Of a stretch of 64,000 bases of DNA, positions 15,161-56,399 are shown one piece after another. The stretch spans positions 20,708,001 through 20,772,000 of the forward strand of contig NC_043007.1 in assembly GCF_006345805.1 (NCBI RefSeq), read 5' to 3'. How positions within the stretch are numbered: position 1 is the stretch's first letter; each line of letters starts with the position of its first letter. A program made the translations under genes and the position numbers. Origin of the DNA: Octopus sinensis. Taxonomy: Eukaryota. The notes under the pieces are model-generated. The model had not been told where the DNA came from and did not search any database. It worked only from the letters and a program-made list of their open reading frames with translations.

Positions 15161-15208
15161 ATTTTACATGTTTCGGTTCTTCTTGAAAAAACGAACCTTA
15201 TCAAAAAT
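15161..15208 (-). ncRNA. Candidate minimal type I hammerhead ribozyme, U3-A8 core variant
   Basis: Minus: AUUU-UUGAUAA-GGUUC(loop)GAACC-GAAAC-AU-GUA-AAAU; perfect 5-bp stem II, palindromic ACAUGU stem III, weak AU-only stem I. Confidence 0.55.
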
Positions 15209-15332
15209 ATTTTAAAAAGTTAAGTGTAATAAAAAAGTTCATAATTGTTTCTTACTGGTCTCAACAGAATCCACGTGGTTGTTTTTAGCTCTCTTATGTG
15301 TCCGAATGACCAGTGGCTGAAATATATATATA

Positions 15333-15898
15333 TTGGGTTGTCCGGAAAGTTTGTGTCGATTTATAGTAGCTTACCTTTCGACTTATTTTAGAACATGGTT
15401 GAGTTCATAAAATAGGATTTAACTACACCTCTATTTACAGCACAGTTTAAGCTATCTTTTCGTGGAAGAAGGTTTATGTTCCTATCACCTGTGTTAATTC
15501 TGTAACCTTTTAAAATGGAAGATAAGAAAGTTCATTTTCGGCACTTGATACTTTGGGAACCAGACAAAAATTGCTGCAGCTCGGCTGGGATGTGTTACCC
15601 CACCCTCCATATTCACCAGATATTGCTCCTTCAGATTTTCACTTATTCAGGTCTCTGCAGAATAGTCTTAATAGTAAAAATTTCAATTCCTTGGATGATG
15701 TAAAAAGATACCTTGATGAATTCTTTGCCATGAAACCACCTCAATTCTGGGAAGAGTGTATTTTCAAGTTAAAGGAAAGATGGAGATGCATTGTGCAACA
15801 AAATGGTTCATATTTGGTTGATTAAAAATGTAATGGCAAGTATTTATTGACCTTTTTCTTTCATTTAAAAATCAGCACAAACTTTCTGGACAATCCAG
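15333..15898 (+). mobile_element. Internally deleted mariner element with both TIRs
   Basis: TIRs ttgggttgtccggaaagtttgtgtcgattt / aaatcagcacaaactttctggacaatccag; N-terminal MEDKKVHFRH fused to C-terminal WDVLPHPPYSPDIAPSDFHLFRSL. Confidence 0.92.
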
Positions 15899-16062
15899 CG
15901 AATTCCAGTATGTGGATACAAGTCAGAATGCCTGCTGTGTCCCTTCCTGCTGGTTATGGCTTTGATGGCTCCATTGCAGCAATCCATGTCACACCATACA
16001 GCGGTGATACTTGCATTTTGATACCAGGGGTGAATCCTAAAGATACAGCTAAATCTTTTCCA

Positions 16063-16219
16063 GGAATGGCTCTGTGGTAAGTAGCTTGCTTACCAACCAC
16101 ATGGTTCCGGGTTCAGTCCCACTGCATGGCACCTTGGGCAAGAGTCTTCTACTATACCCTCAGGCTGACCACAGCCTTGTGAGTTGATTTAGTAGACGGA
16201 AACTGAAAGAAGCTCATCG

Positions 16220-16259
<40 letters not shown>

Positions 16260-16421
16260 TATGTGTGTGTGTATACGTTTGTGTGTCTGTGTTTGTCCCC
16301 CACAACATCGCTTGACAACTGATGCTGGTGAATAAGTCTTGGGGTCGATTTGCTCGACTAAAGGTGGTGCTCCAGCATGGCCACAGTCAAATGACTGAAA
16401 CAAGTAAAAGAGTAAAAGAGT
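16063..16421 (+). mobile_element. OR-type tRNA SINE, internally deleted
   Basis: Head, central domain and (GAGTAAAA)-like tail. Confidence 0.8.
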
Positions 16422-16721
16422 AATATTCAGAACTCTTCCAGTCCTCCATAACCAACTAAAATTTTCTCAACTACAACTTTAATCATTATGCTCCCCCAAT
16501 GCCATCGACTGTCCACCAATTCATCAAGCTGTTTCTGAAAAAAGGAGACATCAAAAATCATCAAAATTAGCCCAAACACCTAAACACACACACACCATTA
16601 GTAAATCATAAATCTGAGAGTATACTCTAAGTTATAGACCAGCCACTAGAGTCTGATGAGACGTGTGTAACGAGAAGCACTTTATGGATGCAAAACCCTG
16701 GGTAACCCTATGAACCAACGA

Positions 16722-17470
16722 TGACTGTGGCCATGCTGGAGCACTGCATTTAGTTGAACAAATCGACCCCAAGACTTATTCTTTGTAAGCCCAGTACTTA
16801 TTCTATCGGTCTCTTTTGCCGAACCGCTAAGTGACGGGAACGTAAACACACCAGCATCGGTTATCAAGTGATATTGGGATGACAGACAGAAACACACAAA
16901 CACACACACATACACATATATACATATATACGACAGGCTTCTTTCAGTTTCCGCCTACCAAATCCACTCACAAGGCTTTGGTTGGCCTGGGGCTATAACA
17001 GAAGACACCTGCCCAAGATGCCACGCAGTGGGACTGAACCCGGAACCATGTGGTTGGTTAGCAAGCTACTTACCACACAGCCACTCCTGCGCCTATATAT
17101 ATATATTCTTTTATTCTTTTACTCGTTTCAGTCATTTGACTGTGGCCATGCTGGAGCACTGCCTTTACTCGAGCAAATCGACCCCAAGACTTATTCTTTG
17201 GAAGCCTAGTGCTTATTCTATCGGTCACTTTTGCCAAACTGCTAAGTTACGGGGACGTAAACATACTAGTATCAGTTGTCAAGCAACGTTGGGGGGTACA
17301 AACACAGACACACAAACATACACACACACACATACATATGCAAACACACACACACACACACACACACCACACACACACACATATATGTATGTATATATAT
17401 ACACGACAGGCTTCTTTCAGTTTGCGTCTACCAAATCCACTCACAAGGCTTTGGTCAACCCGAGGCTATA
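16722..17470 (-). mobile_element. Two tandem OR-type SINEs
   Basis: Same consensus as 6705-7520. Confidence 0.8.
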
Positions 17471-18119: not shown

Positions 18120-18166
<47 letters not shown>

Positions 18167-18170
18167 GAGT

Positions 18171-18242
<72 letters not shown>

Positions 18243-18369
18243 TGTGCATGTATTTTTAGATCATTGATCAATATATCAGAAATTCCTGATTATGGCATGT
18301 AATTGGTCAGAATGATTCACTTGGATTATTGCATTTAGAAAATACTGGTGATTCTTCAGACATAGCTTC

Positions 18370-18787
18370 TTATTTCTTAATTGTCTACAAGGGGCTAAAC
18401 ATAGAGGAGACAAACAAGGACAGACAAAGAAATTAAGTCGATTACATCGATCCCAGTGCGTAACTGGTACTTAATTTATCGACCCCGAAAGGATGAAAGG
18501 AAAAGTTGATCTTGGCAGAATTTGAACTCAGAACGTAGCGGCAGACGAAATACCTATTTCTTTACTACCCACAAGGGGCTAAACATAGAGGGGACAAACA
18601 AGGACAGACAAAGGGATTAAGTCGAATACATCGACTCCTGTGCGTAAGTGGTACTTAATTTATCGACCCCGAAAGGATGAAAGGCAAAGTCGACCTTGGC
18701 GGAATTTGAACTCAGAACGTAACAGCAGACGAAACACCACTAAGTATTTCCCCTAGCGCGCTAATGCTTCTGCCAGCTCTCCGCCTT
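18370..18787 (-). mobile_element. Nin-domain SINE with duplicated internal unit and 13-bp TSD
   Basis: TSD agacatagcttct on both sides; two copies of the ~185-bp unit. Confidence 0.85.
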
Positions 18788-21399
18788 TAGACATAGCTTC
18801 TGTTATGCTGAAGTATACATAGACCTTGGCAAGCTCATGCTAATAAAAACAACCAAAATGAAACGGTGAAAAATTACAACGTTTTTCTAGAAAAAAAGAG
18901 CATTTGCTTCTTTTGGATGGATGTTAGCCATGGTTGACGTGTGTCAGCTGTGTGTGTACACATGTATGTTGTGTTCTGTCATGCATAGCAGGTTGGCACT
19001 GTTGTACTCTGTCTAGCCCTGGATGTTGTCAAATGGCTGACTATGGAAGCATCTGGAGTGACACACCAACAGCTGGCTGCATCAATTAAATTTCAGTTAT
19101 ATATAAATCATCATCATATATACAATAATGAAATAATCATTACACAAAACATCCAGACAGGTGATACAAAAAAGGGAAAACACAACATCCAGATAGATGA
19201 TACAAAGAAAATAAGGACGGGTCATTTGGAGTTTTCATTCCTCAGTCAAGTTCCAGATTATCTTTGCAATTTTGGCTGGTTATACTCGAGATTGCTCCAA
19301 TCTGGCCAGCCCCAAGGAAAAACTAAGCTAAGAGCATTAGATTCCTTGGAAGAAAGCAGTTAATGTATATGAAAACAAGGAAGGAAAAAAAAAACGGAGA
19401 ATGTTACACAAATATAAATAACAGGACATAACAACATGTGTCTTTCGACTAAGCTGGCATGTGTGGAAGCAAAGCCTATGGCAGGGATACAAGATTTCAC
19501 AGGCACAGGGAGGAATATAGATGTTGCAGGGATGACAGCTGAACCAAGAAAGAGAGATCAGGCTTGGCCGAACACCAGTCACGTGGGGAGAGAAGAGAGA
19601 GAGATAGAGGCAGAGGGACAGAAGAATTAAGGAGGGGCGAGAAAAAATGACAGGGACACAGTGAAGTGAAAAGAGGAGAGAAAGTGAGCAAGAAGAGAAG
19701 GCAGGGAAATGTGAGAGAGGGGGAACGTTAGAACGAAGAGCGGGATGAACGAATAAGCATGAAAGGGCTGATAGAAAGAAAGAATAGAGCCGTACAAGGT
19801 TTAGATAAATATATACTTACATATAAGAGACCAAAATGTACGTACGTCACTCTCTCTCTCTCTCTCTCTCTCTCTATTATATATATATATATATATATAT
19901 AAAACACAAAATGGGACAAGAGCACTAAAAAAAAAGGGCAGTTAGGTGATAGCTGCAGGAGTGGCTCTGTAGTAAGAAGCTTGCTTCCCAACCACATGGT
20001 TCCGGGTTCAATTCAACTGTGTGGCGATGGTGGGGGGACAAACACAGACACACAAGTACATACATATATATTTGTATATACGATGGGCTTCTTTCAGTTT
20101 CCATCTACCAAATCCACTGACAATGCTTTGGATGGCCCAAGGCTATAATAGAAGACACTTGCCCAAAGTGCCACACTAATGCTGCTGATATATATATACA
20201 TATATATATTTTTTCCTTTTATCCAGTTTCAGCTCATGAGCTGTGGCCATGCTGGGGCATCGCCATTGTTTTGTACAACAGGGGTTGCCACCCCCTGCCA
20301 GAGCCACGTGGAGGTTTAGGTGTTTTCGCTCAATAAACACACCCAACGCCTGGTCTGGGAATCGAAACCGCGATCCTCCGACCGAATTAGGAAAAAACCC
20401 TCCCCATTGGTAAATCAAAATAACAAAGTGAACTCAGTGATAAAAAATCTGCCCCTAAGCTAAGGTCTTCTACGACCATGTTTTTACTGATGAAATTCAC
20501 CCCTCTGTCTATATACCTACCCTCTTTGTAATGTTGGCAAATGGAATAAGTATAATAATGAACATTGTCAATTTAATTTTTAAAATTCCATATGTGGCTG
20601 AAGAGTGCTCTACGTAAAAAACGTAAAAACCACCATTTGACTGTGTGAATCTGAGAGGGGAATATGTTGGATAAAATCATAATTAACTGATTCTCTTGTA
20701 TTTTTTTTTTACCAAAAAGCCAGGAACTTTTCTGCACTTCCTCGTAGAGGAGACTATCATTGATTCACAAAATTAAGAGACAAAAGAGGTGATTTTATTT
20801 TGAAAATAAAAGCCTGTGTGGAATGTGGACGCAATGCAGTGGCATCCTTTGGTGCGAAATAATGTGAAAGCTAGTTTTTTTAATTGCTTTCCAATCCTCG
20901 TTTATGCTGGGGGAAAAGGATAAATGCAGTAAATGAAAATTTTGCCGAGAATAGAAACCAAATGAAAGCAGGTCAATGCGAAGACTTATGACTTCTATGA
21001 AATTTGGAACGAAATATTGCAAAACTTGCTGCTGATCGTCAGCCACAAGAATTGCATCGATAAATGCTGCGAGATATTTCTGTTCTTATTAATCATATTA
21101 ACAGGCAATCATAATTGTTTCTGTTTTATTCGATTTAATAAAAATCTTGCTTGATAACTAAAATAGTAAAACTTCTAACATCCGTATTAAATTCAATTGA
21201 ACAGCCACTCCCTTTCGTTTATAATGTAAGAGCAACATTTTGAGGAGCCTTCAAGTGTTTTAGCTGTATGTATGTTATGGATGGGTGACTTGCGGGAAAA
21301 TACGAGAAGCATTGTATTAGATCTTCATAATAAAGTGTCATTTCGTTTAGTAGCAGCGGTGGGATTCTTTTGTAGATGCAACACACTCAAAATGCACAA

Positions 21400-22112: not shown

Positions 22113-22304
22113 CAACTCTTTTTGTTCTGAATCTAAGGTTATGTCCGTTAGGAATGTTTTTTTCCAGGCAATAAATTCATTAAACAAGAAACGAGTAATT
22201 GTGAAATGATTATTGTGCAACCCCGTTCATCCTTGTTTCACTTTATATAACGAAAAGCAACATTGTACTCTTTCGCTCTCTCAGGATTTTCAGTTCAAAT
22301 GATA

Positions 22305-22705
22305 ACCTATTTCTTTACTACCCACAAGGGGCTAAACACAAAGGGGACAGACAAACGGATCAAGTCGATTACATCGACCCCAGTGCGTAACTGGTACTTA
22401 ATTTATCGACCCCGAAAGGATGAAAGGCAAAGTCGACCTCGGCGGAATTTGAACTCAGAACGTAACGGCAGACGAAATACCTATTTCTTTACTACCCACA
22501 AGGGGCTAAACACAGAGAGGACAAACAAAGACAAACGAATTAAGTCGATTACATCGACTCCAGTGCGTAACTGGTACTTATTTAATCGAGTCCGAAAGGA
22601 TGAAAAGCAAAGTCGACCTCGGCGGAATTTGAACTCAGAACATAACAGCAGACGAAATACCGCTGAGCATTTCACCCGGCGTGCTTAACGTTTCTGCCAG
22701 CTCAC
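22305..22705 (-). mobile_element. Nin-domain SINE with two internal units
   Basis: Same consensus as 18370-18787. Confidence 0.85.
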
Positions 22706-31306: not shown

Positions 31307-31378
31307 GGCAGTTTAGCTTAATGGTATAGCACTCGGCCAGTCATTGAAGGATGTGGGTTTGAGTCCCATGGCTGTTTG
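31307..31378 (+). pseudogene. tRNA-like sequence (pseudo-tRNA or SINE head)
   Basis: A-box tagcttaatggtatagc and B-box gtgggtttgagtcccat; anticodon arm does not pair well. Confidence 0.45.
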
Positions 31379-38803: not shown

Positions 38804-38859
<56 letters not shown>

Positions 38860-38920
38860 TATATAAGAAATTAAAAAAGGAAAATACACACACTTCCATG
38901 GTTTTAATATAATTTTTAAT

Positions 38921-38956
38921 ATATCGACCGGTTTCGCTATCGCTATTCATGATAAT
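38921..38956 (-). ncRNA. Candidate minimal hammerhead ribozyme, A3-U8 core variant (left arm)
   Basis: Minus: UAUC-AUGAAUA-GC(GAUA)GC-GAAAC-CG-GUC-GAUA. Confidence 0.55.
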
Positions 38957-39137
38957 ATGTTTTACTTATTTGAATATATGTTTTTTCTTAAGAAGAAATT
39001 TTGTCCATGTTGTGTGTGATGAAATTCACGAGTGAATTTATCTACTTGTGAAGTCATTCACTCGTGAATTTCATCACACACAACATGGACAAAATTTCTT
39101 CTTAAGAAAAAATATATATTCAAATAAGTAAAACATA

Positions 39138-39172
39138 ATATCATGAATAGCGATAGTGAAACCGGTCGATAT
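39138..39172 (+). ncRNA. Candidate minimal hammerhead ribozyme, A3-U8 core variant (right arm)
   Basis: AUAUC-AUGAAUA-GC(GAUA)GU-GAAAC-CG-GUC-GAUAU; 5-bp stem I, palindromic ACCGGU stem III, predicted cut after 39167. Confidence 0.55.
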
Positions 39173-39311
39173 ATTAAAAATTATATTAAAACTATGTGTG
39201 TGTGTGTATTTTCCTTTTTAATTTCTTATATACATTACAATTCACCACGTGGGGATAATCGGAATTCCTCTTTTCCATTACTGCATATATATATATGTGT
39301 ATATTATATAA

Positions 39312-41012: not shown

Positions 41013-41013
41013 A

Positions 41014-41122: not shown

Positions 41123-43195
41123 TTTCCCCAAAAATTTTTCGAAAGTTTCCAACGTAAATTTTACTCAAAAATTTTTCGAAAATTTTCACGAAAAATTTTT
41201 ACAAAATTTTCACGGAAAATTTTCCCCAGAAATGTTTCACTGTTTTTTTTTCCGTCCTTGTTTTTGCATACATTCGCTGCTTTCTTCCAAGGAATCTAAT
41301 ACTCTAGCTTAGTTTTTCCTTGGGGCTGGCCAGATTGGGGCAATCTCAAGTACAATCGGTCAAAATTGTGAAGATAATCTGGTACTTGACTGAAGAAAGA
41401 AAACTTTGAATGACCCATCCTTGCTTTCTTTGTATCGTCTATCTGGATGTTTTGTTGTCTCATTTTTGTATCACCTAACTGTCCGGAAGACCCATGCCAG
41501 CATGGAAAAGCAGACATTAGATAATGATGATAATACACACACATACACACATAAACTTTGCTCTAGTGTACTCTCTCACTGGCCCATGTAAACATGGAAA
41601 AGTAAATGTTAAAAAGATAGTGATGATAATGAATGAAATACATATATTTATACACACACACTCACACACACACATCATTCATTCAAAAATTTATTACATT
41701 TCAAATATTCTCATTTGTTTTGAAAAAAATCTAAAACTTTTTAATTATTCAGAAAATAAAATGTCTTTTATTACAATATATATTTTACATATTTTTTTAT
41801 GTTCCATTTTTTATTTTTATTAAATCAAATAAATTTGTAAGATTTTTCAATATAAATTTTCTAGATTCTGTATGTTTGTAAACTGTTAATCTTTGGCGAA
41901 AGGAATTATGTTTGGGTTTTATGAAGTTTACATAGAAAAAAAAGAAAAATCTTTCTTGTATAAAAGAAATAACAACAGCATAGGTGTGGCTATGTGGTAA
42001 GATGCCTGCTCCCAAAACACATGTTATCAAGTGTAAGGTTCCTCAGGGTGAACATCTAGAAATATGCTGAAACAACAGATTCAAGATCTTTCCTTTTTAT
42101 AAATGTCCAAAGGCCGAACCAAGATATTGGAATGCGTTTTATAAAAAATATTCTCACCGAAACTAAATGTGTAAAAAGCATATTTATAAAAATATTCTTT
42201 TATTCTTTATGAACAAGAACACAGCCCATGATCCTGCAAGCTTTCTCAGACTGGTGGAATCAGTGATGTTGCTGGATTATTTGACTATCTGTAGTTTAAT
42301 GTCTGCTGCAAAAAAAATAGGATGGGAAAAAAAATCTAGCTTTGATGAATGTGTGTACTGGAGTTGTTATATTTGATTAAAACTCTTAAATGCAATGCCC
42401 CAGCATGGTGACAGTCCTAGGGTTTGAACTTTGGACTACAGTAATATAAAAGAACTGAGCTAGTTCTTTCCCTAACCCTTTAGTATTCAGATAACTCAAA
42501 TATAATGTCTATTCACCAACACTACACCTGATTTTCTCCCCTCCATTCACACACAAGCATGTATCTGACTCATACACTGTTCACTTCCCAGACATATGCT
42601 TTATATGCACTTTTGACAAGTTGTGGTGCACCTGAGCACTGTATACAATAATTTCATTATTATCATCATTATTATTATTATTCACATTGTTTTCAATTAA
42701 TCATGCTTTATCTCTTAGCTTTGAGATTTCAATGACGTGATTGTATATTCTTAGAATAATATTGTAGGGTAAGTGTAAGAGGCCAAATCTGGCCAGTTTT
42801 AACATAAAACAGGTAGAACATTTGGGCTGGATATGGCCAGTTTGAATAAGATATCTCATGCCTGATACAAGTTTTGAATCCAACTTCATACTATCAACCA
42901 CAACTTGGTCTCCGTTCAAACTGAATTAATAACAAGAGAAATTTATATTGAAGTCAAATGTGAGCTGAGAAACTTGTCTTCAATATTAAACAAGAGCTAA
43001 TCAAAGTGCTAATAAATACACATGTTTTTGTGCATGGATAGCAAACTAACTTTTGGTTCGAAGCTAAACTTCAATCAAATATATAAAAAAAAAACATATA
43101 TGATAGTTAACTATCAAAATAATTTTGAACCAAATCTACCTTGTTGATTGTAACTCTCCTAAATAGAAGGATAGAAAATGATGAGAGTTAATGGC

Positions 43196-44701: not shown

Positions 44702-44703
44702 AT

Positions 44704-44741
<38 letters not shown>

Positions 44742-45248
44742 GCATATGCATAAACACATGCACATGTGTGCACATACACACAGATACAAACACGCATGCA
44801 TGCACACACATACACACAGATACTCACAAACACAGATGCATGCACACACACACACTCACACACATATACATACACACATACACATGTATGCACATACACA
44901 CACAGATACAAACACACGTGCATGCACACACATACACACAGATACTCACAAACACACATTCACGTGCACACACACACCACACACACACACACACTCACAC
45001 GCATATGCATAAACACATGCACATGTGTGCACATACACACAGATACAAACACGCATGCATGCACACACATACACACAGATACTCACAAACACAGATGCAT
45101 GCACACACACACACTCACACACATATACATACACACATACACATGTATGCACATACACACACAGATACAAACACACGTGCATGCACACACATACACACAG
45201 ATACTCACAAACACACATTCACGTGCACACACACACACACACACACAC
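44702..45248. repeat. (CA)-rich compound microsatellite duplicated as a 259-bp block
   Basis: Identical ORF starts at 44766 and 45025. Confidence 0.9.
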
Positions 45249-45260
45249 AGAGTAATTTAC

Positions 45261-45382
45261 CTGAATAATATCTGGTTGGGCAAAACTTGTTATTTGTTTT
45301 TTTACTATTAGCTTTAGTTCATCTTGAATTTCTTCAGCGTTTTCAGTTATGTCATCTTTGAGAACTACAAATGCATAAATAC
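45261..45382 (-). CDS. ACSS1: ACSS1-like exon (122 bp)
   Basis: (G)IYAFVVLKDDITENAEEIQDELKLIVKKQITSFAQPDIIQ; AG/GT boundaries; phase consistent. Confidence 0.88.
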
Positions 45383-46257
45383 CTGGAATTTAAGATTACA
45401 AAAAAGAAACAAAATAATTATTCGAAAAATTTAAAGAATATTTTGAAAAACATGCATATTTATGAAAAAAGCGTGACTTTATTGCTATAATTAAATCAAA
45501 TATACACCTTTTTTTCTTTTTGTTTTCATTTGTTTTTACATCCATTTTTTCATTGTGGCATGGGTTAGATGAATATATAATTGAGGATCTATTTTACAAA
45601 TGGATTTTTTTCCTGTCACTAATACTTTTCTGTGTTTCTGGTTTTTTTTATTTTGCATGTCTTTAAGGGCATGAGGTGAGCAGATAGCTTGTTGATAACA
45701 AACAACAATAACAACAATGCTGCTCATAGCAACTTTCACAGAGTGCAGATGTAAACAAACAAACACACACACACACACACAGATGATGGCCTTCTTTTGG
45801 TTTCATCCGCCAATTTCAAAATTCCCTCACAAGGCTTTTGTTGGCCCTGGGCTATATGGTTGGCCCATGATGCCACATCATGGTAATGAATCTCAGTTTT
45901 AAAATTATGGCAACAGTTTCAAAAGTCCCAAGGTTTCTATATTGATATTTAATATTTGAATGGAATTTAGATCTTATAGACTGTGATACATGACCCAGTC
46001 CAGGATTCAAACCCACGATCTAGCAGCCACGAGTGCAATGCCCCGACCACTAGGTCACACACACACTCACACACATACTCAAATGTGTAGTCTCCTACCT
46101 GGCCCGCTCCTGTCAAACTATCCAACCCATGCTAGCATTGAAGGCAGACATTAAACAATGATGATGATGATGATGATATATATGAATCCAGGATATTACC
46201 CTCGCCCCATGGACAATTACCCCTGAGGATAACAGATGATGATTTTATATATATATA

Positions 46258-46426
46258 GATGCAGGAATGGCTGTGTGGTAAGTAGCTTGCTTACCAACCA
46301 CATGGTCCCGGGTTCAGTCCCACTGCATGGTACCTTGGGCAAGTGTCTTCTACTATAGCCTCAGGCCGACCAAAGCCTTGTGAGTGGATTAGGTAGACGG
46401 AAACTGAAAGAAGCCCATTGTATATA

Positions 46427-46519
<93 letters not shown>

Positions 46520-46730
46520 TTGTGTGTCTGCGTTTGTCCTCCCAACATCGCTAGACAACTGATGCTGGTGTGTTTACATCCCCATAACTTAGCGGTTCAG
46601 CAAAAGAGACCGATAGAATAAGTACAAGGCTTCCAAAGAATAAGTCCTGGGGTCAATTTGCTCGACCAAAGGCAATGCTCCAGCATGGCCACAGTCAAAT
46701 GACTGAAACAAGTAAAAGAGTAGAGAAAAG
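46258..46730 (+). mobile_element. OR-type tRNA SINE
   Basis: Family consensus with an internal (TA)n tract. Confidence 0.85.
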
Positions 46731-46744
46731 AGTATATATATATG

Positions 46745-46778
<34 letters not shown>

Positions 46779-47113
46779 CCAGCCCCGGTCAAACCGTCCA
46801 ACCTATGCAGCATGGACAACAGACGTTAAGTGATGGTGATGATGCCTATGCATGTGTATCTTTGTGTTTGACCCCTTCACCATCTGACAACTGATGTTGG
46901 TTTCTTTACATCTATGTAACCTAGCAGTTCAGCAAGGGAGACTGATAGAATAAGTACCGAACTTAAAAGAAAAAAATAATAAATGATTTTTGTTTTTTTT
47001 TGTTTTCAACTAAAACCCTTCAAGGTGGTGCCCCAGCATGGTCACAGTTCAATAACCGAAACAATTAAATGATAAAACTACAACAATATCAATTTATGAA
47101 TAATATCACATAC

Positions 47114-47177
47114 CTTCTCCTTTGATATCATGTGGGAAACTAACCACGGCAGATTCTGCTACAGCACAGTGGTTGGC
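47114..47177 (-). CDS. ACSS1: ACSS1-like exon (64 bp)
   Basis: ANHCAVAESAVVSFPHDIKGE; AG/GT boundaries. Confidence 0.9.
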
Positions 47178-47422
47178 CTTCAAAGAGAAAAGAAATTCCA
47201 TAAAGATGGTTAATAATTCAGAAATATTAAATTTCTAAATATCTCATAGAGATATGTACGGTGGTGGGGCGATATAATGGTTGTATACTGTCAATTTAAC
47301 GTGACAGTAGGGGATTACACCACCGCTGTTTAGCCCTAGGAAGCATCGACGCTTCCTGTCGGCTTCGACACATTTACTGTGTCCTTATATATATTTATGA
47401 AGGGGAGACAAATACCCCCAAC

Positions 47423-47502
47423 AGCTAGGCCTGCATCTAGAGACACGCATGTTTCAGGGTCTTTGCCCATCATCGGTCTAGAGTAGTAGAGGCCTGCTAG
47501 CT
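47423..47502 (-). ncRNA. Candidate type I hammerhead ribozyme with extended stem I, C4 core variant, in an ACSS1 intron (sense orientation)
   Basis: Minus: AGGCCU-cuacuac-UCUAGA-CCGAUGA-UGGG(CAAAGA)CCCU-GAAAC-AUGCGU-GUC-UCUAGA-ugc-AGGCCU; predicted cut between 47442 and 47441. Confidence 0.72.
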
Positions 47503-47954
47503 GAAGATATCCGTCTTGACTTCGTAAATATATATATCTAATTTTCAGTGTTAGAAAATAGAAATTTGATATTTCATCTCATTTTTGTGGTAAAACTAGA
47601 AATCTGTCAGTAAAAACAAGCATTCCAGTTGATCAGATCAATGGAACAGCCTACCTGCGGAAATAATGTATAAGTGGCTGAGTGCCCCACAGATATAGTT
47701 CTCAGGGATATTCAGTGTGACACAATATGACAAGGCTGGCCCTTCTGAATTACAGGTGCAACTTATTTTTGCCAGCTGAGTGGAATGGGGCAATGTGAAA
47801 AATAAAGTGTTTTGCTCAAGGAAATTAAACTGCCAGAAATTGAACTCACGTCCTTATAATTGTGAGCTGAATATTCTAATCACTAAGTAATGTGCCTTCA
47901 CTTTAGTGGTAGGTAAATCAGAAACAGCTAATGATTATTATGAGATTCAATTAA

Positions 47955-48472
47955 GGCAGCAAGCTGGCAGAAACGTTAGCATGCCGGGCAAAATGCTTAG
48001 TGATATTTCGTCTGCCGCTAAGTTCTGAGTTCAAATTCTGCCGAGGTCGACTTTGCCTTTCATACTTTTGGGGTCGATTAAATAAGTACCAGTTACGCAC
48101 TGGGGTTGATATAACCGACTTAATCCATTTGTCTGTCCTTGTTTGTCCTCTCTGTGTTTAGCCCCTGGTGGGTAGTAAAGAGATAGTTATTTCGTATGTC
48201 TCTATGATCCGAGTTCTAATTCCGCTCAGGCCGACTTTGCCTTTCATCCTTTTGGGGGTCGATAAGTTAAGTACCAGTTGTGTATTGGGGTTGATCTAAT
48301 TGACCGGCCTCCTCCCCAAAAGTTTCGGGCCTTGTGCCTAGAGTAGGAAAAGAATCAATACTCTATTTTACTTTTGGGGTCGATAAATTAAGTACCAGTT
48401 GTGTACTGGGGTCAATCTAATCGATTGGTGCTTTTCCCAAAATTTTCAGGCCTTGTGCCTAGAGTAGAAAAG
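47955..48472 (+). mobile_element. Multimeric Nin-domain SINE
   Basis: One head followed by three central-domain copies with two tail types. Confidence 0.8.
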
Positions 48473-48852
48473 ATTATGAGATTGCAATTTTTAAAGAGTA
48501 TGTGGTGCTGAAAGATAAAAGAACATGAATATAAATAAAAGATGTCTGCGACTTGGTCTGAAAGTTGTTTTAGTATCCTTGCACGCATTCTTGCTATGCA
48601 ATTTGCAAGACAATAATCTCTGAGAAGGAATGCCAAGAAAATGAGGAGTAAAATGGGAGAAAAAAAGAGATCCAGAGTAGAACAGATGACTACTCCCGTT
48701 TTAGAAGATAATGTAAGGATGATCAAGTGGGGTAGGCACTCAAGCCTGTTTTGCCAGTACCAGCCTTTATGAGCAAAGTTGCTAAGACCAAGTAACTTGC
48801 AAGACAGAAATACATATATTGAACGAAATAGTAAAAGGCCAAGAAATCTCAC

Positions 48853-48980
48853 TATAGCATCCTCGATCTCAGCTGTACCAAGTCGGTGGCCACTGACATT
48901 GATGACATCATCGACTCTCCCAGTAATACGATAAAACCCGTGTTCATATCGTATAGCATTGTCTCCAGAGAAATATAAAC
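48853..48980 (-). CDS. ACSS1: ACSS1-like exon (128 bp)
   Basis: (G)[42 protein letters not shown]. Confidence 0.95.
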
Positions 48981-49698
48981 CTACAGATGAAAATAAAATA
49001 TTTATAACATGTATAAAATAATAAATAACAATAAAAACAAAAAAAGCTTGAAAATATATTCTTTGAAAAGACATAAAAAACATTTTTTTTTAGTTATTAG
49101 TTTTAGATTTTCGCAAATAATTGTTTCCCTTCAATAAAATGTCTTTTATGGTATTTCATTCTTGAATTTGTTTTGCAAGAATCTCAGCATGAAATTATGT
49201 GTTGAAACTGGTATTGTTGTACTTTGGGAGGGTCATTTGGTGAATAAACACACCTGTTGGTTGTAGTCCATGTCAGTTTTATTTTCTTTATTGAATTTTA
49301 TTATATTTTCTTATGACCACTTGTGTATTTGGAAATCATTGAAAAGGTCATAGAAAATGCCACAATATCTACAATGTGTGTGTGTGTGTGTGTGTCTGTG
49401 TTCAGTTTTATCATTAACTAATCAATTAATTAATTAGTTAATTATCGATTAGGTTGTTGTAAATGTCACTTTACTGTAGCTTTTATAGATACTCACACAC
49501 ACACATACATAAATATATATATATGGCTGGCTTCTTTCACTTTCCGTCTACCAAATCCACTTACAGGACTTTTGGTTGGCCTAAGGCTATGGTAAAAAAA
49601 CACTTGCCTAAGGTGCCACACACAGAGACCAAACCTGAACCATGTGGTTAGGAGGCAAACTTCTACTATATAGCCATATTTTCATTGGATTTTAATGA

Positions 49699-50071
49699 CT
49701 AGCAGTATCGCCCAGCGTTGCTCGGGTTTGTTTCAAACCTTTAGAATTGGAATTTTTGAAAAGTAAAAATTTTGCATTATGTAGCTTGTTATTCTGGTTG
49801 AAATACACTGAAAAATGGCAACACAGCAGTCAAAAAATCGTAAAAAAATAGGGATTTTCATAGAAAAAAAGCACCTTTTTGATGCAAATAATTTTTGGTG
49901 TTAACATGATCCAATTTGAATATTTTCTTCTACAGAATGAAGAGCAAGCCTTCTTCTATCATACTGTCAATTTTGGTCAACTTGCGCCATAGGGTCTCGG
50001 AGGAGATAGTGTTAGTTGAAGGCTACCAAACCTGCCACACACAGACATCTTCAGCTTTATATAGAGAGAGA
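49699..50071 (-). mobile_element. Non-autonomous Helitron
   Basis: Minus strand starts TC and ends with hairpin cccgagcaacgctggg followed by CTAG; inserted between A and T. Confidence 0.75.
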
Positions 50072-50099
50072 TTTATAAATATTACAAAAGTTAAATTAC

Positions 50100-50226
50100 C
50101 TTTGTCAGACTTAAAATATGTATCTACGAAACGAGATTTCCCTCCATATATTGTTCTGCACATGCCTGGCCATGGTTGCTTAATACACAGCAGCCCTTCT
50201 TTGTTGTCACCTTTTAATTCATTATT
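50100..50226 (-). CDS. ACSS1: ACSS1-like exon (127 bp)
   Basis: NNELKGDNKEGLLCIKQPWPGMCRTIYGGKSRFVDTYFKSDK; AG/GT boundaries. Confidence 0.93.
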
Positions 50227-50478
50227 CTGAAATTTAAAACAATATTAAAAATACCTTTCAATACTTTTAAGAAGAGAAACAAGTGTAGAAAACTGTTTTC
50301 CATTTTATTTCGTTTTTGGATTTGGTTTGCAAGATTCTTTATATGAGTTCGTGTGTTGAAGCATATTCTGTTGTGTCTGGGGAGAGTCATTTTCTTTTTG
50401 TGCCTTATAATGTAACACACTCACCGGCAAAATTTCCACTTATTTCTTATTTTTATTTTCCTAAAATTTTCGTTGCTA

Positions 50479-50833
50479 TTCCTCAAACATAGCAGCAGTT
50501 CCCAAACTCATTTTTGCACAGTGGGCTGGTTTTGTTTGTTCCTTCTTGAGCCATGCCTGGCTCATAAGGGCCGGTTTTCCAGTTTCCTTGGCGTATAGGT
50601 TCCCCACCTGGACGGGATGCCAGTCCGTTGCAGGTGAGCTGCAAGATGCAGGAGGAAAGAGTGAGAAAAAGTTGTGGCGAAAGAGTCAGCAGAAGTTCAC
50701 CATTACCTTCTACCAGAGCCGCGTAGAGCTTAGGCGTTTTGCTCATAAACACACACATCGCCCAATCTGAGATTTGAACCTGCGATCCTTTGACCGCGAG
50801 TCTGCTGCTCTAACCACTAGGCCTTGTGCCTCC
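50479..50833 (-). mobile_element. tRNA-derived SINE with V-like domain
   Basis: ggaggcac..ggcctagtggttagagc head; cctgcaacggactggcatcccgtccagg domain. Confidence 0.78.
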
Positions 50834-51167
50834 ATGTCTTTCCTTATGAGTGAGAGAACACATGAAATAATATTTCCATATAATTTATTTGCTTTTCCCC
50901 TCATTTTGAGGAATGATTATCTCATTGCTAAAATATGTTATGACATAACTCTTTTCTATACAATTTAATCTTGATGCCTTAAATAAAGACAATGTTTCCA
51001 GTGATGACCCAATGACTCAATAAGGGTCAATAAAATTATACTTTTATGACCAATGACCCAATAAGGGTCAATAAAATTACACATTTTATTAATACCAGGT
51101 ATTTGAGAAAAAACAAATTTCAAAATTAGTGATGGTTATATTATTGCTGAGAAGTGCTGCAACATAC

Positions 51168-51280
51168 CTCTTTATCTACCAAACACGGTTCAATACCATA
51201 GAATGGTCTCATCGGCATAGCTGGAAATATTTCAGCTTTGGAATTTGATGGTCTTGGGGAAATGAGAATACCTCCTGTTT
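51168..51280 (-). CDS. ACSS1: ACSS1-like exon (113 bp)
   Basis: (E)TGGILISPRPSNSKAEIFPAMPMRPFYGIEPCLVDKE. Confidence 0.93.
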
Positions 51281-51572
51281 CTGAAATAGTGTACGTATTT
51301 TGCTGTCAATTTTACAATTAAATAAAAATTAAAGACGAATGGGAATTTTTTTTTTTTATGTGGAAGAAGGAAAAAAGAACCAAAAGAAGAAAAAAGGAAA
51401 ATAAGAAAGAATGGTTACGGGGGAAAATATATATTTTTTACAAGGCTGAAAATATACAGTACAATCCATCATCATCATCATTGTCATCATCAGCACCATC
51501 GCTGCCGCCATTGCCATCGTCATCATTGTCATTAACATCTTCATCTACTGAGTAGCCATGTTTTCTGAAACA

Positions 51573-51822
51573 GTTTTGCCGAACTGCTAAGTTACGGGGA
51601 TGTAAACATACCAGTATCGGTTGTCAAGTGATGTTGGGGGGAACAAACACAGATGCACAAACATATACATACATACATACATATATATATATATCCACCA
51701 CGTGACCGACCAGTCCATCAGATGTAGTTACACATCGCTGGTCACAATGCGTTCGCATTGTTTTAGCCTTCGAATGACGCCACCCCACTGGCTAAGCAAG
51801 CAGGCCACATATATATATATAC

Positions 51823-51878
<56 letters not shown>

Positions 51879-51886
51879 TATAATAT

Positions 51887-51950
<64 letters not shown>

Positions 51951-52140
51951 ATATATATATACATATATACATATATACGATGGGCTTCTTTCAGTTTCCG
52001 TCTACCAAATCCACTCACAAGGCTTTGGTCGGCCCGAAGCTATAGTAGAAGACACTTGCCCAAGGTGCCACACAGTGGGACTGAACCCGGAACCATGTGG
52101 CTGGTAAGTAAGCTACTTACCACACAGCCACTCCTACACC
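51573..52140 (-). mobile_element. OR-type SINE with a foreign insert (51695-51810) in its TA tract
   Basis: Family consensus split by the insert. Confidence 0.75.
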
Positions 52141-52186
52141 TAGAATATACATATTCTATATGTAGGCATTAAACCAGCCCACTTGT

Positions 52187-52882
52187 GGAGGCACATGACC
52201 TAGTGGTTAGAGCAGCAGACTCGCAGTCAAAGCATCACGGGTTCGAATCTCAGACTGGGTGATGTGTGTGTTTATGAGCGAAACACCTAAGCTCCAGGCG
52301 GCTCCGGCAGAAGGTAATGGTGAACTTCTGCTGACTCTTTCGCCACAACTTTCTCTCACTCTTTCCTCCTGCATCTTGCAGCTCACCTGCAACGGACCAG
52401 CGTCCCGTCCAGGTGGAAAACCTATATGCCAAGGAAAGCAGGAAACCGGCCCTTATGAGCCAGGCATGGCTCGAGAAGGAAAACAAGGTAAAATTGGATA
52501 TCTGTAGATTTAGTGCCAGAGGAAGGTAAAATTGGTGGAGGCACATAGTCTAGAGGTTAAAGCAGTGGACTTGCCGTCGAGGGATCATGGGTTCAAATCT
52601 CAGATTGGGCGATGTGTGTGTTTATGAGTGAAACACCTAAGCTCCCGTGGCTCTGGCAGAAGGTAATGGCGAATGTCTGCTGACTCTTTCGCCACAACTT
52701 TCTCTCACTCTTTCCTCCTGCATCTTGCAGCTCACCTGCGACGGGCCGGCATCCCGTCCAGGTGGGGAACCTATATGCCAAGGAAACTGGCCCTTATGAG
52801 CCAGGTGGGGCTCGAGAAGGAACAAACAAAACCAGCCCACTGTGCAAAAAAGAGTTTGGGAACTGCTGCTATGTTTGAGGAA
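52187..52882 (+). mobile_element. Two tandem V-domain SINEs (52187-52484 and 52537-52882)
   Basis: Same family as 50479-50833, in opposite orientation. Confidence 0.8.
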
Positions 52883-52903
52883 TTGGTAACTTGTTAATCT
52901 TAC

Positions 52904-52996
52904 CTGTCTGCCACCAAGTATCGACAATGTCGCACCGTTGCTCTCCAACGTTTTTGTAATACCACTCCCAGGCTTCATGATTGAGAGGTTCTCCGA
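52904..52996 (-). CDS. ACSS1: ACSS1-like exon (93 bp)
   Basis: (V)[30 protein letters not shown]. Confidence 0.95.
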
Positions 52997-53113
52997 CTAA
53001 AACAGGGATTTATATTCCAAAGATGAAAAACAAAGAAAAACTGAAGACAGTCTATAGATATATGCATGCAAAAAAATTAATCAAAATAAACAAAAACAAT
53101 TTAATTAACAGTA

Positions 53114-53162
<49 letters not shown>

Positions 53163-54789
53163 CCATCCTTGTCATCATTATCATTTAACATTCACTATTC
53201 CATGCTTGCATGGATCAGACAGAATTTGTTGAGGTACATCTTTCTGTTGTTGGATGCCTATACTGTCACCAACCCTCGTGTGTTTTCAAGCGAAATAATA
53301 GTTTTCCATTGCTAGACATGCATTCCACAGAAACCCAGACATGAACAACACTGCTTGTATGACAGTGATGCTTGTTTACAGCCATCACATGATGTCAAGT
53401 CAAGGATACACACAAACACACAAGAACATACATATACACACGACAAGCTTCTTTTAGTTCCATCTGCCAAACCCATCCACAAGACTTTGATCAGCCAGAG
53501 GCTAAAATAGAAGACCCTCACCCAAAGTGTCATGCATTGGGACTGATTTCAAGACCGCATGATTGGAAAGCAAGCACCTTAAACATCTAGCTGTATCTGT
53601 CCCTATGCTATCACATTTAAGAATATTAAGCATTATGATGTTTTCAAAAACGTTTTCTTCATGAGATTTATATGTAAAGAGTCCCATCCGAGCATGATCA
53701 TTGCAGGAGCGGCTAGCTGGCTTCCATGCCAGTGGCACATAAAAGTCACCATTCGAGTGTGATCATTACCAGCGTTGCCTTACTGGCACGTGAAAAAACA
53801 TTCGAGTGAGGTTGTTGCCAGTACCACCTGACTGGCCCCCATGCCAGTGGCACATAAAAGCACCCACCACACTCTCCGAGTGGTTGGTATTAGGAAGGGC
53901 ATCCAGCTGTAGAAATTCTGCCAGATCAAGATTGGAGCCTGGTGCAGCCATCTGGTTCGCCAGTCCTCAGTCAAATCGTCCAACCCATGGCAGCATGGAA
54001 AGCAGACTTTAAATGATGATGATGATGATGATTTTGTGAAAATATTTTGAAATTTTCTTCCTAAAATTTTCAATGATGGAAAGCAAAAAAAAATTAAAGA
54101 CTGTTCCTAGATATGTGTATGCGAAAAATTTAATCAAAACAAGCAGAAGCAATTTAATTAATAGCATTCATCATTATCGTCATTACCACCACTACCATCA
54201 CCACCACCACCACCATCACCACCATCACCACCAACACCAACACTCTCCACAACCACCACCACACCACCACCACCACTTCCATCATCATCATCATCATCAT
54301 TTAACATTCCCAGAAATAGTTACAAAAGCAATATTTTTTTCCAGGTTATGCATTTTTAAACCAAATGTTCTACAGCTGCCAGTCTCAATGGAAATCCTAT
54401 ACAGCCATTCAATCCATTCAATTCTGTAGCCAAATATATACCTCACCAGAATCCAGTAACAACAAGCAGTGGCTATTTTTATTATGGTCCTAATTGGACA
54501 GACCCGTGATTAAAAGTTTGAATACTGCATGTTTTTCATTTTTTGTCTTTTTGTCAGACATATTACATTTTGAATAATCTTATTCAATGTGATTCCGACG
54601 GTAGGATGTGATTTGAGAAACACTTGTCACTACCTGTCATTCTGCTACCTGGTAACGACCTAATCAAGATGAAATAGATCCTTCAGCAGACACCTATTAC
54701 AATGGTTATATTGATTTACTCAACAACAACCTTGAAACATATTTCTTAATTCTTTCTTTCACACACTCTCTCTCACTTATTTCTCTTTC

Positions 54790-54820
<31 letters not shown>

Positions 54821-55368
54821 GACTGTCATTATAGTGACAGTCTTTTTTTTAATATCTGTGTTTTTTGTGTATGTTGAAAAACATACAGAAACACACACAG
54901 AAATACACACACACACACACACACAAACAACTAAAAAGATAACTAAATGTATTTTATATATATATATATAATTATTTTTTGAAGTCTGTGTTGTGTTGAC
55001 AGACTTGCACTTAAAATTCCTATGTTTTTAATCAAATCTTGTTGGTTACTATGGTGATAACACTATCTATCTGTCTGTCTATTTTTCATACACAAACACA
55101 CACACACTCTCACTGTATTTCTTTCTCAATAATAACATTTTCTCCACCCTTTCTTCTAAATAAATGTTGTGACAAGGGTTATCTCCCTTTTTGATTCTTT
55201 TTCTTTTTCCCACCCTCTAAAAGATGTTGTAAAGGACAGACATAAGATTTTCAGATTGGTGTGATACTGTCTTGTCCATCTTTACCACTTACTATCCAAC
55301 ATCATAAATATACTATATTTCATGGAGAACCATGAAAAGGATACGAAAGAGAAAAATATACGCATAAA

Positions 55369-55725
55369 CTGTTGTGTCTGGGGAGAGTCATTTTCTTTTG
55401 GTGCCTTATAATGTAACACACTCATCGATAAAATTTCCACTTATTTCTTATTTTTATTTTCCTAAAATTTTTGTGGTAGTTGCCCTTATTTTACTTGGCA
55501 GTTGCCCTTATTATAATTTTATAATTCTATTTATAAAACTATTGAAAAGGTTGCAAGTCGCAACGAAAATTTTAGGAAAATAAAAATAAGAAAAAAGTGG
55601 AAATTTTACCAGTGAGTGTGTATTACATTATAAGGCGCAAAAAGAAAATGACTCTCCCCAGACACAACAGAATATGCTTCAACACACGAACTCAGATAAA
55701 GAATCTTGCAAACCAAATCCAGAAA
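55369..55725. mobile_element. Fold-back element, same family as 141-418
   Basis: Arms ~55369-55471 and ~55566-55669 are reverse complements. Confidence 0.75.
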
Positions 55726-55796
55726 CGAAATATATGCATAAAAAATACAAAAACAATATTCATTGTTACAAGTAGGGATTAATGTTATAAACTTAC

Positions 55797-55934
55797 CACT
55801 TCCCAGAACACGCAGAGAGGATTTGTCATAATTATGTACCCATGAATCTCCCATTTTAATCAACAAACGAAGAGCTGTGGGTGCCAAGTATATGTGAGTC
55901 AACTTAAGTCTCTCCACGACTTCCCAATAGCGAC
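55797..55934 (-). CDS. ACSS1: ACSS1-like exon (138 bp)
   Basis: (G)[45 protein letters not shown]. Confidence 0.95.
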
Positions 55935-56349
55935 CTTTAAAAGAAAGAAAGAATGTTTCAAAACAAGAAGATAGATTTTTCAAGTTTAAGATCGAAAAGT
56001 TATGCAAAGTTATTAATTGCTGCACCTTTTTGTGTCATATATTTGTTGTTTCTTGTTTGGTAAAAGTGTGGTGCAGGCATGACAGTGCAGTCAAGAAGTT
56101 TGCTCCTCAACCACATGGCTTTGGCTTCAGTTCCACTGCATGGTACCTTGGGCAAGTATCTTCTGCTGTAGCCCTGGGCTGACCAAAGCCATGTGAGTGT
56201 GTTTAGAAGACAGAGACTGAAAGAAACTAACTGTGTGTATATATATATATACTGGAGTAAACACATAAATGTGAAACAAGGTGGAAAAAAGAGTACTCAA
56301 ATACCAGTGGTAGAGTAATATGCTTTATTTAAAGCAGCAGAAAATTCAA

Positions 56350-56399
56350 CAAAACCTGTTACTCTGAGTTTCCCGTTGCCGTTCATCGGACAGTTTTTG
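56350..56399 (-). ncRNA. Candidate minimal type I hammerhead ribozyme, C4 core variant, in an ACSS1 intron (sense orientation)
   Basis: Minus: CAAAAACUGU-CCGAUGA-ACG(GCAA)CGG-GAAAC-UCAGA-GUA-ACAGGUUUUG; predicted cut between 56360 and 56359; host fragment is flanked by (TA)n. Confidence 0.7.

What the first reader, a model, noticed from the sequence alone, without database searches (positions are those of the whole stretch)
15161..56399. Four unrelated hammerhead ribozyme folds, all with non-canonical cores, in (TA)n-associated elements
Seen: four sequence-unrelated short inserts beside (TA)n tracts (15161, the 38921/39138 pair, 47423, 56350) each show stem I, a 7-nt core, stem II, GAAAC, a short self-complementary stem III and GUH. 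The cores are UUGAUAA, AUGAAUA and CCGAUGA (twice) instead of CUGANGA. Established: Penelope-like retroelements carry minimal type I hammerheads with palindromic stem III proposed to act as dimers, and core positions 3 and 8 form a tertiary Watson-Crick pair. Inference: the U3-A8 and A3-U8 double changes preserve that pair, and C4 recurs in two families, so these look like family-level variants rather than decay. A strict CUGANGA search would miss all of them, so cephalopod genomes may hold a large unannotated variant-ribozyme repertoire.
Basis: partly seen in the sequence, partly recalled or inferred. Interest (0 to 1): 0.85.

Follow-up and report, generated by a model that had tools for sequence, protein, structure and literature searches.

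The report
Variant-core hammerheads in octopus repeats
An octopus genome carries small self-cutting-RNA-shaped motifs with altered core letters inside jumping-gene remnants, and in one abundant repeat family the altered letter is the family norm, but no one has shown that these motifs cut.

Summary
All five motifs are real type I hammerhead folds: 5 hits against a shuffle mean of 0.07. Rfam lists no hammerhead at any of them. The host is Octopus sinensis.

U3-A8 (site A) is already published for Penelope-like elements. A3-U8 (site B) sits in both arms of one inverted insertion, so it predates that insertion; its family status is untested.

Site C is not a minimal hammerhead. It lies in a 333-bp, strongly self-paired repeat (47218-47550). 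Head-to-tail joints point to a monomer of about 355 nt, like a non-LTR retrozyme. C4 is the family norm there, at about 94% of depth in two deep runs, so the 'decay' reading fails for C. Site D (C4) could not be tested at family level.

No Penelope RT or endonuclease was found nearby, and cleavage is untested. U4C is known to slow hammerheads, and an Aedes CCGAUGA candidate was already assayed in 2011.

Verdict: a new variant of a known kind. A C4-fixed retrozyme-like family in a cephalopod was not found in my searches.

The parts
15161..15208 (-). Site A: minimal type I hammerhead fold, core UUGAUAA (U3-A8), palindromic stem III, predicted cut after A15165
15090..15322 (-). Approximate host insert of site A between two (TA)n runs; probable truncated 3' end of a Penelope-like element (inferred)
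   Evidence: no other copy in the window
38857..39235 (.). Site B host: inverted duplication of about 190-nt arms joined 5' end to 5' end, 96% identical, about 350 nt behind the SLX4 stop codon
38922..38954 (-). Site B1: minimal hammerhead fold, core AUGAAUA (A3-U8), 2-bp stem II, stem III ACCGGU, predicted cut after C38926
39138..39172 (+). Site B2: second arm, same core, C11.1 changed to U, predicted cut after C39167
47218..47550 (-). Site C host: one solo unit of a multicopy, strongly self-paired repeat; head-to-tail joints give a monomer of about 352-357 nt; retrozyme-like
   Evidence: depth, joints, loose ends; fold z = -8.1
47436..47482 (-). Site C hammerhead: core CCGAUGA (C4 at 47475, family majority), 6-bp stem I, U10.1-U11.1, 6-nt loop II, near-palindromic 10-nt stem III, predicted cut after C47442
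47388..47538 (-). Long rod that continues stem I of site C through an internal loop
   Evidence: z = -5.5, 0 of 200 shuffles as stable
47218..47390 (-). 3' module of the site C repeat: several hairpins, 10 to 36 times deeper than the hammerhead half, ends at TA-rich flanks in other copies
56348..56401 (-). Site D hammerhead fold: core CCGAUGA (C4 at 56388), 2-bp stem II with GCAA loop, stem III ACUCAGAGU, predicted cut after A56360
56255..56410 (-). Site D host insert between (TA)n tracts; not more structured than shuffles
   Evidence: z = 0.07

Best explanation
These are hammerhead motifs carried by four unrelated retroposed repeats of the Penelope-like (PLE) kind in Octopus sinensis, and the odd cores came with the source elements rather than arising by decay in place.

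A, B and D look like 5'-truncated PLE ends, or derivatives of them, with minimal, dimer-dependent hammerheads. C is a solo copy of a non-coding, retrozyme-like repeat of about 355 nt whose hammerhead has C4 as the family norm.

Likely working cycle (inferred from known PLEs and retrozymes). A tandem array is transcribed. Two neighbouring hammerheads pair their self-complementary stem III. The RNA is cut after GUH, slowly because of the variant core. Unit-length RNA, possibly circularised, is reverse-transcribed by a PLE protein and inserted at TA-rich DNA, mostly 5'-truncated. The solo copies in this window have no partner in the same orientation and are probably silent.

Shown: the folds, their excess over chance, C4 as family majority at C, the strand bias of pairing, the truncation gradient, two tandem joints. 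Inferred: PLE origin, dimer cleavage, circular RNA.
For: 5 hits against a shuffle mean of 0.07; all keep a Watson-Crick 3-8 pair without being asked to; 0 strict CUGANGA hits. Stem III self-duplexes of -4.6, -8.3, -12.5 and -7.4 kcal/mol, with no monomer hairpin.

Site C pile-up: 2116 and 3018 contigs laid from two deep runs. U4 holds only 233 of 4366 depth units (5.3%, 4 contigs) and 1869 of 30180 (6.2%, 8 contigs). Depth rises from the 5' to the 3' end of the hammerhead strand (838 at 47550-63 to 143,340 at 47340-53 in X15). Head-to-tail joints: 47550 to 47218 with 24 letters between (X15, one entry) and 47537 to 47220 with 34 letters (X1, one entry). TA-rich loose ends lie before 47218 and 47272. 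One variant (47446) makes stem III a perfect palindrome, in 12-15% of depth in the deep runs.

Of 35 listed variants, those at paired sites keep the pair in 11 of 13 cases on the hammerhead strand and 4 of 14 on the other strand (Fisher p = 0.006; sites not independent).

B has the inverted 5'-truncated layout described for PLE insertions (PMC8557442 passage; opposite-strand pairs 100-700 bp apart in PMC4209133), and both arms carry A3-U8. Mussel retrozymes are 350-390 bp (PMC7229834).
Against: No RT or GIY-YIG Pfam hit among 248 of 248 frames of 45 aa or more within 3.5 kb of the motifs. No protein relative of frames crossing C, D or B.

Family data exist for C only. They are limited to copies at least 80% alike, and 30 variant rows were hidden, so constancy of the other core positions is not proven. 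The tandem joints rest on one entry each.

In the two probable RNA runs U4 is more common (19 of 24.1 depth units, 2 of 3 contigs, in X1; 18.6 of 121.7 in X21), which could mean that expressed copies favour the canonical core.

U4C 'considerably decreases activity in vitro' (PMC3088659). In a pairwise scan of one type III hammerhead only the G3-C8 swap rescued the CUGA region (PMC9901934). Most of the family's depth lacks the hammerhead half. Hammerhead cleavage was dispensable for insertion by one PLE in vitro (PMC11167929). Stems are marginal at A (4 A-U pairs) and B (2-bp stem II).
Confidence: 0.68

Rival explanations
1. Family-level fossils. The source elements fixed C4 or A3-U8 because cleavage no longer mattered. 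The fold is kept only as a protein-binding or packaging structure, or hitch-hiked during a burst of copying, and these RNAs do not cut.
For: U4C lowers activity. Perreault 2011 lists an Aedes type I construct labelled cCgauga among its test oligonucleotides, and its figure of inactive RNAs holds two Aedes structures (the PDF text was too scrambled to match them). PLE insertion worked without cleavage in vitro. The 3' module without the hammerhead half is 10 to 36 times deeper. U4 is more common in the probable RNA runs.
Against: All other core letters are intact in 5 of 5 motifs, and the 3-8 pair is kept by double changes. Variants around the C hammerhead tend to keep stems and the stem III palindrome. 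The U4C viroid variant stays infectious, and 3-8 covariants are active in vitro. Dimer-dependent candidates fail when tested as monomers.
Confidence: 0.22
2. Copy-level decay. The families have canonical cores, and the window's copies mutated after insertion.
For: The copies do carry private changes (47487, 47398 and 47512 differ from nearly all other copies; C11.1 to U in B2). A and D were seen once only.
Against: Refuted for C (C4 in about 94% of depth). Very unlikely for B (both arms share both changes at 96% identity). A needs two compensating changes and matches a published variant. No canonical core occurs in the window. It remains open only for D.
Confidence: 0.07
3. Chance matches in AT-rich repetitive DNA.
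For: The descriptor was written after seeing the motifs. Stems of A and B are weak. The loosest setting gives 2.9 hits per shuffle. No Rfam hammerhead match.
Against: 0 of 60 shuffles reach the observed count in any of the six relaxed settings. All five have self-complementary stem III, which the scan only partly asks for. The C family shows strand-specific pair keeping.
Confidence: 0.03

Closest known systems
Minimal type I hammerheads of metazoan Penelope-like elements (Cervera and De la Pena 2014, PMC4209133)
   Same: Short stem I, palindromic stem III that needs a dimer, scattered solo copies, opposite-strand pairs close together, and a U3-A8 family (S. mansoni; also a Saccoglossus row in its alignment).
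   Different: The alignment rows that I read have no A3-U8 or C4 core and no cephalopod. Stem II is 2 bp at B and D, against 4-8 bp in most rows. G10.1-C11.1 is missing at C and D. No RT or endonuclease frame was found beside the motifs here.
Metazoan non-LTR retrozymes (Cervera and De la Pena 2020, PMC7229834; Li, Clavereau and Pollet 2026, bioRxiv 10.64898/2026.07.22.740005)
   Same: Site C: a non-coding unit of about 355 nt with head-to-tail joints, strong self-pairing, a type I hammerhead with 6-bp stem I and an internal loop, and solo monomers in the genome. Mussel units are 350-390 bp.
   Different: C4 core as family majority; U10.1-U11.1; stem I continued into a long rod; a strong excess of 3' fragments without the hammerhead. 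Circular RNA and cleavage are not shown. No cephalopod is mentioned in the main-text passages searched.
Natural hammerhead core variants (Perreault et al. 2011, PMC3088659)
   Same: U3-A8 covariation, U10.1-U11.1, 2-bp stems II, the U4C viroid variant, and an Aedes type I candidate labelled cCgauga.
   Different: There these are rare single instances. Here C4 is the majority state of a multicopy family, and it recurs in a second, unrelated repeat.
Small dimer-cleaving PLE hammerheads (Lunse, Weinberg and Breaker, RNA Biol, PMID 27858507)
   Same: By its title, seen in a reference list: small variants associated with PLEs that cleave as dimers.
   Different: Not held in the library, so not read. 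It may already contain these cores or octopus sequences.

Membership tests
Type I hammerhead ribozyme | Three-way junction: stem I, 7-nt core, stem II, GAAA, stem III, UH, stem I | tested here: met
   5 of 5 motifs; shuffle mean 0.07
Type I hammerhead ribozyme | Consensus CUGANGA | tested here: not met
   0 strict hits; cores are UUGAUAA, AUGAAUA (twice) and CCGAUGA (twice)
Type I hammerhead ribozyme | Watson-Crick pair between positions 3 and 8; G5, A6, A9, G12, A13, A14, A15.1-U16.1 and H17 intact | tested here: met
   All five; the 3-8 pair holds also when it is not required
Type I hammerhead ribozyme | Match to an Rfam hammerhead model | tested here: not met
   None at E up to 10 in four local scans; none among the 150 of 224 rows listed for the whole window
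Type I hammerhead ribozyme | Self-cleavage after H17 | not testable with these tools
   Only contigs were available; they cannot show RNA ends
PLE minimal hammerhead | Palindromic stem III that pairs in a dimer | tested here: met
   Self-duplex -4.6 to -12.5 kcal/mol, no monomer hairpin
PLE minimal hammerhead | Lies in a pLTR next to an RT plus GIY-YIG frame | tested here: inconclusive
   0 such hits in 248 nearby frames and no protein relatives. Truncated copies normally lack the frame, and no whole genome was held
PLE minimal hammerhead | Insertion layout: inverted 5'-truncated copy, TA-rich targets | tested here: met
   Inverted layout at B; all motifs 18-71 nt from (TA)4+; TA-rich loose ends at the 3' end of the C family
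PLE minimal hammerhead | G10.1-C11.1 closing pair of stem II | tested here: inconclusive
   Present at A and B1; G-U at B2, U-U at C, A-G at D
Non-LTR retrozyme (site C) | Head-to-tail repeats of about 170-400 nt | tested here: inconclusive
   Two joint entries giving 357 and 352 nt, one each in X15 and X1; the window copy is solo
Non-LTR retrozyme (site C) | Non-coding and highly self-paired | tested here: met
   z = -8.1 on the hammerhead strand, -5.4 on the other; no Pfam or protein hit
Non-LTR retrozyme (site C) | Canonical helix sizes with loop 1 / loop 2 contacts | tested here: inconclusive
   6-bp stem I with an internal loop, and a 3-bp stem II plus U-U with a 6-nt loop. The likeness of the loop letters to the Schistosoma type is recalled, not tested
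Non-LTR retrozyme (site C) | Accumulates as circular RNA | not testable with these tools
   A joint in a probable RNA contig cannot tell a circle from a tandem transcript or DNA

The most novel reading that the evidence does not exclude
Octopus retroelements have independently fixed non-consensus hammerhead cores in several abundant families: C4 at least twice, plus A3-U8 and U3-A8. The C4 family at site C is an active circular-RNA retrozyme whose slowed, dimer-only ribozyme is invisible to Rfam and to CUGANGA searches. Variant cores would then be the rule in cephalopods, and U4 would not be a required letter in natural animal hammerheads.
Probability: 0.33. Interest if true: 0.68.

Novelty: new variant of a known kind. 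Interest (0 to 1): 0.5.

Why it matters
Hammerhead surveys of animal genomes rely on CUGANGA descriptors or Rfam models. Here all 5 motifs in one 64-kb window escape both, and for one family the 'wrong' letter is the norm. If these RNAs cut, the natural sequence space of the best-studied ribozyme is wider than assumed. Counts of retrozymes and PLE hammerheads would then be too low, and reports that some PLE clades lack hammerheads would deserve a relaxed re-search. Two C4 motifs lie in introns, in the sense direction of an acyl-CoA-synthetase-like gene, so weak, dimer-only cutting may be what lets such elements be tolerated. If they do not cut, the family is a clean test of whether PLE-mobilised RNAs need cleavage at all, which is an open question. 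The kind of element and one of the three core variants are already known, which caps the interest.

Tried and rejected
No whole genome was held, so no genome-wide scan was possible.

Collection scans for the D family found nothing: viral contigs 0, metagenome contigs 0.

Reading the core state from predicted proteins that cross the motif failed. There were no candidates for frames over C, D and B. The full HMMER search with the D frame returned 2 repetitive proteins that I judged unrelated.

The idea that A3-U4-G5 at B is the start codon of a PLE frame is unsupported: the short frame found no relative (weak evidence).

The idea that C4 serves a common 'off' fold was rejected. In silico, U4 narrows the gap to the hammerhead fold at C (4.5 to 3.2 kcal/mol) but widens it at D (3.1 to 5.2).

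The idea that the elements are ends of octopus Naiads got no support from short exact strings searched in the Naiad supplement (0 hits for 9 site-specific strings). Line breaks and divergence make this a weak test; one search showed only chance matches.

No RNA holder was listed as on record; the runs marked RNA are guesses. No place where many molecules begin or end was listed, but contigs cannot show that.

Earlier findings: nothing by sequence or place.

Literature searches that found no report of cephalopod variant-core hammerheads. Lunse et al., Przybilski and Hammann 2007, and Ambros and Flores 1998 were not held. The supplement of PMC7229834 was too large to read, and bioRxiv supplements are closed; any of these may bear on novelty.


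Full report
Setting. The window is from Octopus sinensis: the protein of the long frame at 31943-38509 is in the collection exactly and clusters with O. sinensis SLX4 isoforms on a contig of the same length (Pfam Slx4 and BTB). No whole genome was held. Exons of an AMP-binding enzyme gene lie on the minus strand, in frames at 58580-58759, 57451-57639, 55609-56034 and 45222-45389 (only the first passes Pfam's cut-off). Sites C and D are therefore intronic and in that gene's sense direction.

Observation. All five motifs are there as described. A relaxed type I descriptor, written after I had seen them, finds exactly these 5 on both strands. Sixty shuffles in 500-nt blocks give a mean of 0.07, and 0 of 60 reach 5. 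Dropping the 3-8 rule returns the same 5, all paired at 3-8. The loosest setting gives 10 against 2.9, and strict CUGANGA gives 0. The four hammerhead regions share no BLASTN similarity. Rfam shows no hammerhead in four local scans, nor among the 150 of 224 rows listed for the window. Each stem III pairs with a second copy of itself (-4.6 to -12.5 kcal/mol) and forms no hairpin alone. In no monomer is the hammerhead the lowest-energy fold.

Site A has U3-A8, a 5-bp stem II and only four A-U pairs in stem I. This core is published for PLEs, with about 1,300 hits in S. mansoni and one Saccoglossus row (PMC4209133; parts 1-2 of 4 of the text and parts 1-2 of 3 of the supplement read). It was not tested at family level.

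Site B is one inverted insertion, 38857-39235, with arms 96% identical. That layout is typical of PLE insertions (PMC8557442, passages). Both arms carry A3-U8, so the double change was in the template, but this is one event. Stem II is only 2 bp.

Site D is a 155-nt insert between (TA)n tracts with no excess structure (z = 0.07). Attempts to find further copies failed.

Site C gave the decisive data. I laid four of the 24 listed runs on 47200-47600 at 80% likeness: two deep runs of unrecorded kind (X15, X16) and two probable RNA runs (X1, X21), all contigs. The repeat spans 47218-47550, with 2116, 3018, 88 and 231 contigs laid. At core position 4 (47475) the canonical U holds 233 of 4366 depth units in X15 (5.3%, 4 contigs) and 1869 of 30180 in X16 (6.2%, 8 contigs). 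C4 is thus the family norm among copies this alike, and the U4 minority could itself be CpG decay. No other core position is among the 40 listed rows, but 30 rows were hidden. Against my reading, U4 is commoner in the probable RNA runs: 19 of 24.1 (2 of 3 contigs) and 18.6 of 121.7.

Layout of the C family. Depth climbs from the 5' to the 3' end of the hammerhead strand. The 3' module is 14-36 times (X15) and 10-22 times (X16) deeper than the core, as expected from 5'-truncated retroposition or from subfamilies with a diverged 5' half. Loose ends before 47218 and 47272 are TA-rich. Two joints run from the element's high end back to its low end with 24 and 34 letters between, giving monomers of 357 and 352 nt; each is a single entry. 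Several joints change strand.

Structure of the C repeat. It folds far better than shuffles (z = -8.1 on the hammerhead strand, -5.4 on the other; the 151-nt rod z = -5.5). Of the 40 listed variants I dropped 5 that were under 5% in both deep runs. Of the 35 left, those at paired sites keep the pair in 11 of 13 cases on the hammerhead strand and 4 of 14 on the opposite strand (p = 0.006). The sites are not independent, the hammerhead was forced in the first fold only, and A-to-I editing in an RNA phase could give the same skew. Either way it points to a minus-strand RNA. One variant makes stem III a perfect palindrome, and another restores a pair at 10.1-11.1.

Mechanism. The best reading is that these are cargo of PLE-type retroposition. 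A, B and D are truncated ends with minimal hammerheads, and C is a non-autonomous, retrozyme-like unit. In tandem transcripts two motifs would pair through stem III and cut after GUH; unit RNAs would be copied by a PLE protein and inserted at TA-rich sites. This follows the models in PMC7229834 (passages and one section), PMC7761336 (passages), PMC6765202 (passages) and the 2026 preprint 10.64898/2026.07.22.740005 (first part and passages). None of the catalytic steps is shown here. No RT or GIY-YIG hit was found in 248 frames near the motifs, so PLE membership is inferred from layout only.

Would they cut? For: Perreault 2011 reports natural U3-A8 and U10.1-U11.1, says 3-8 covariants are active in vitro, and says U4C keeps a viroid infectious although it considerably lowers activity (passages). 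Tertiary-stabilised hammerheads tolerate some core changes (PMC3884650, passages). Against: that paper's oligonucleotide table has an Aedes type I 'cCgauga' construct, and its figure of inactive RNAs has two Aedes structures that I could not match to it. A pairwise scan of one type III hammerhead found low activity for CUGA changes other than the G3-C8 swap (PMC9901934, passages). In one PLE, cleavage needed protein and was dispensable for insertion (PMC11167929, passages). I put cleavage by native dimers of the C family at about even odds.

Novelty. Hammerheads in PLEs and retrozymes, dimer dependence, U3-A8 and U4C are known. Cephalopods have annotated hammerheads too: 235 Rfam Hammerhead_1 loci in the giant squid (PMC6962438, passage). 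I found no report of a multicopy animal family with C4 as its norm, of A3-U8 in a PLE-type motif, or of an octopus retrozyme (searches, seen as listings). Lunse et al. could not be read, nor the supplement of PMC7229834, so this claim is provisional. Passages of PMC10886601, PMC3376415 and PMC8782182 added nothing on these cores. Earlier notes of this scan record U3-A8, U3-C4 and A3-U8 cores in other genomes; they are unchecked leads.

Verdict. Observation confirmed; interpretation partly supported. New variant of a known kind, interest 0.5. The strongest new result is the C4-majority, retrozyme-like family at 47218-47550.

Noticed in passing
window 31943-38509 +: SLX4 (Slx4 and BTB domains) is encoded in one uninterrupted 6.6-kb frame of 2188 codons; the cluster holds several near-identical O. 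sinensis loci. The site B inverted repeat starts about 350 nt behind its stop and would form a long double-stranded hairpin if the transcript reads through.
   Followed up: partly
window 45222-58759 -: Exons of an AMP-binding (acyl-CoA-synthetase-like) gene; hammerhead sites C and D lie in its introns in the sense direction.
   Followed up: partly
window 47218-47390: The structured 3' module of the site C repeat is 10 to 36 times deeper than its hammerhead half. It has a second common end at about 47272, and a joint from 47308 back to 47220 that suggests a shorter tandem unit of about 118 nt. It may be the part that the reverse transcriptase recognises.
   Followed up: partly
window 47420 (table 5c, run X15): One contig shows a diverged sister sequence with a shorter, perfectly palindromic stem III and a changed stem I strand, so related subfamilies exist whose core was not seen.
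   Followed up: no
window 47200-47600 (table 1): Changes read as A to G on the hammerhead strand outnumber the mirror class in all four runs (14 against 5, 13 against 4, 17 against 8, 12 against 4). Some are private changes of the window copy, so this cannot be polarised; it may reflect G-U tolerance or A-to-I editing.
   Followed up: no
window 38950 - and 39143 +: The A3-U4-G5 letters of the site B core form an ATG that opens a short frame running through the hammerhead, as PLE frames can start within their hammerhead; no protein relative was found.
   Followed up: partly
window 18387-18738, 22305-22661, 62448-62915: Three arrays of a related 180-184-bp tandem repeat.
   Followed up: no
window 14630-14932: A repeat next to site A with further copies at 19142-19450 and 41310-41487.
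   Followed up: no
window 31307-31377 +: An Rfam tRNA match just above the gathering score (32.9 bits), upstream of SLX4; probably SINE-derived.
   Followed up: no
window 32758-33412: A 24-bp coding tandem repeat (27 copies) inside the SLX4 frame.
   Followed up: no
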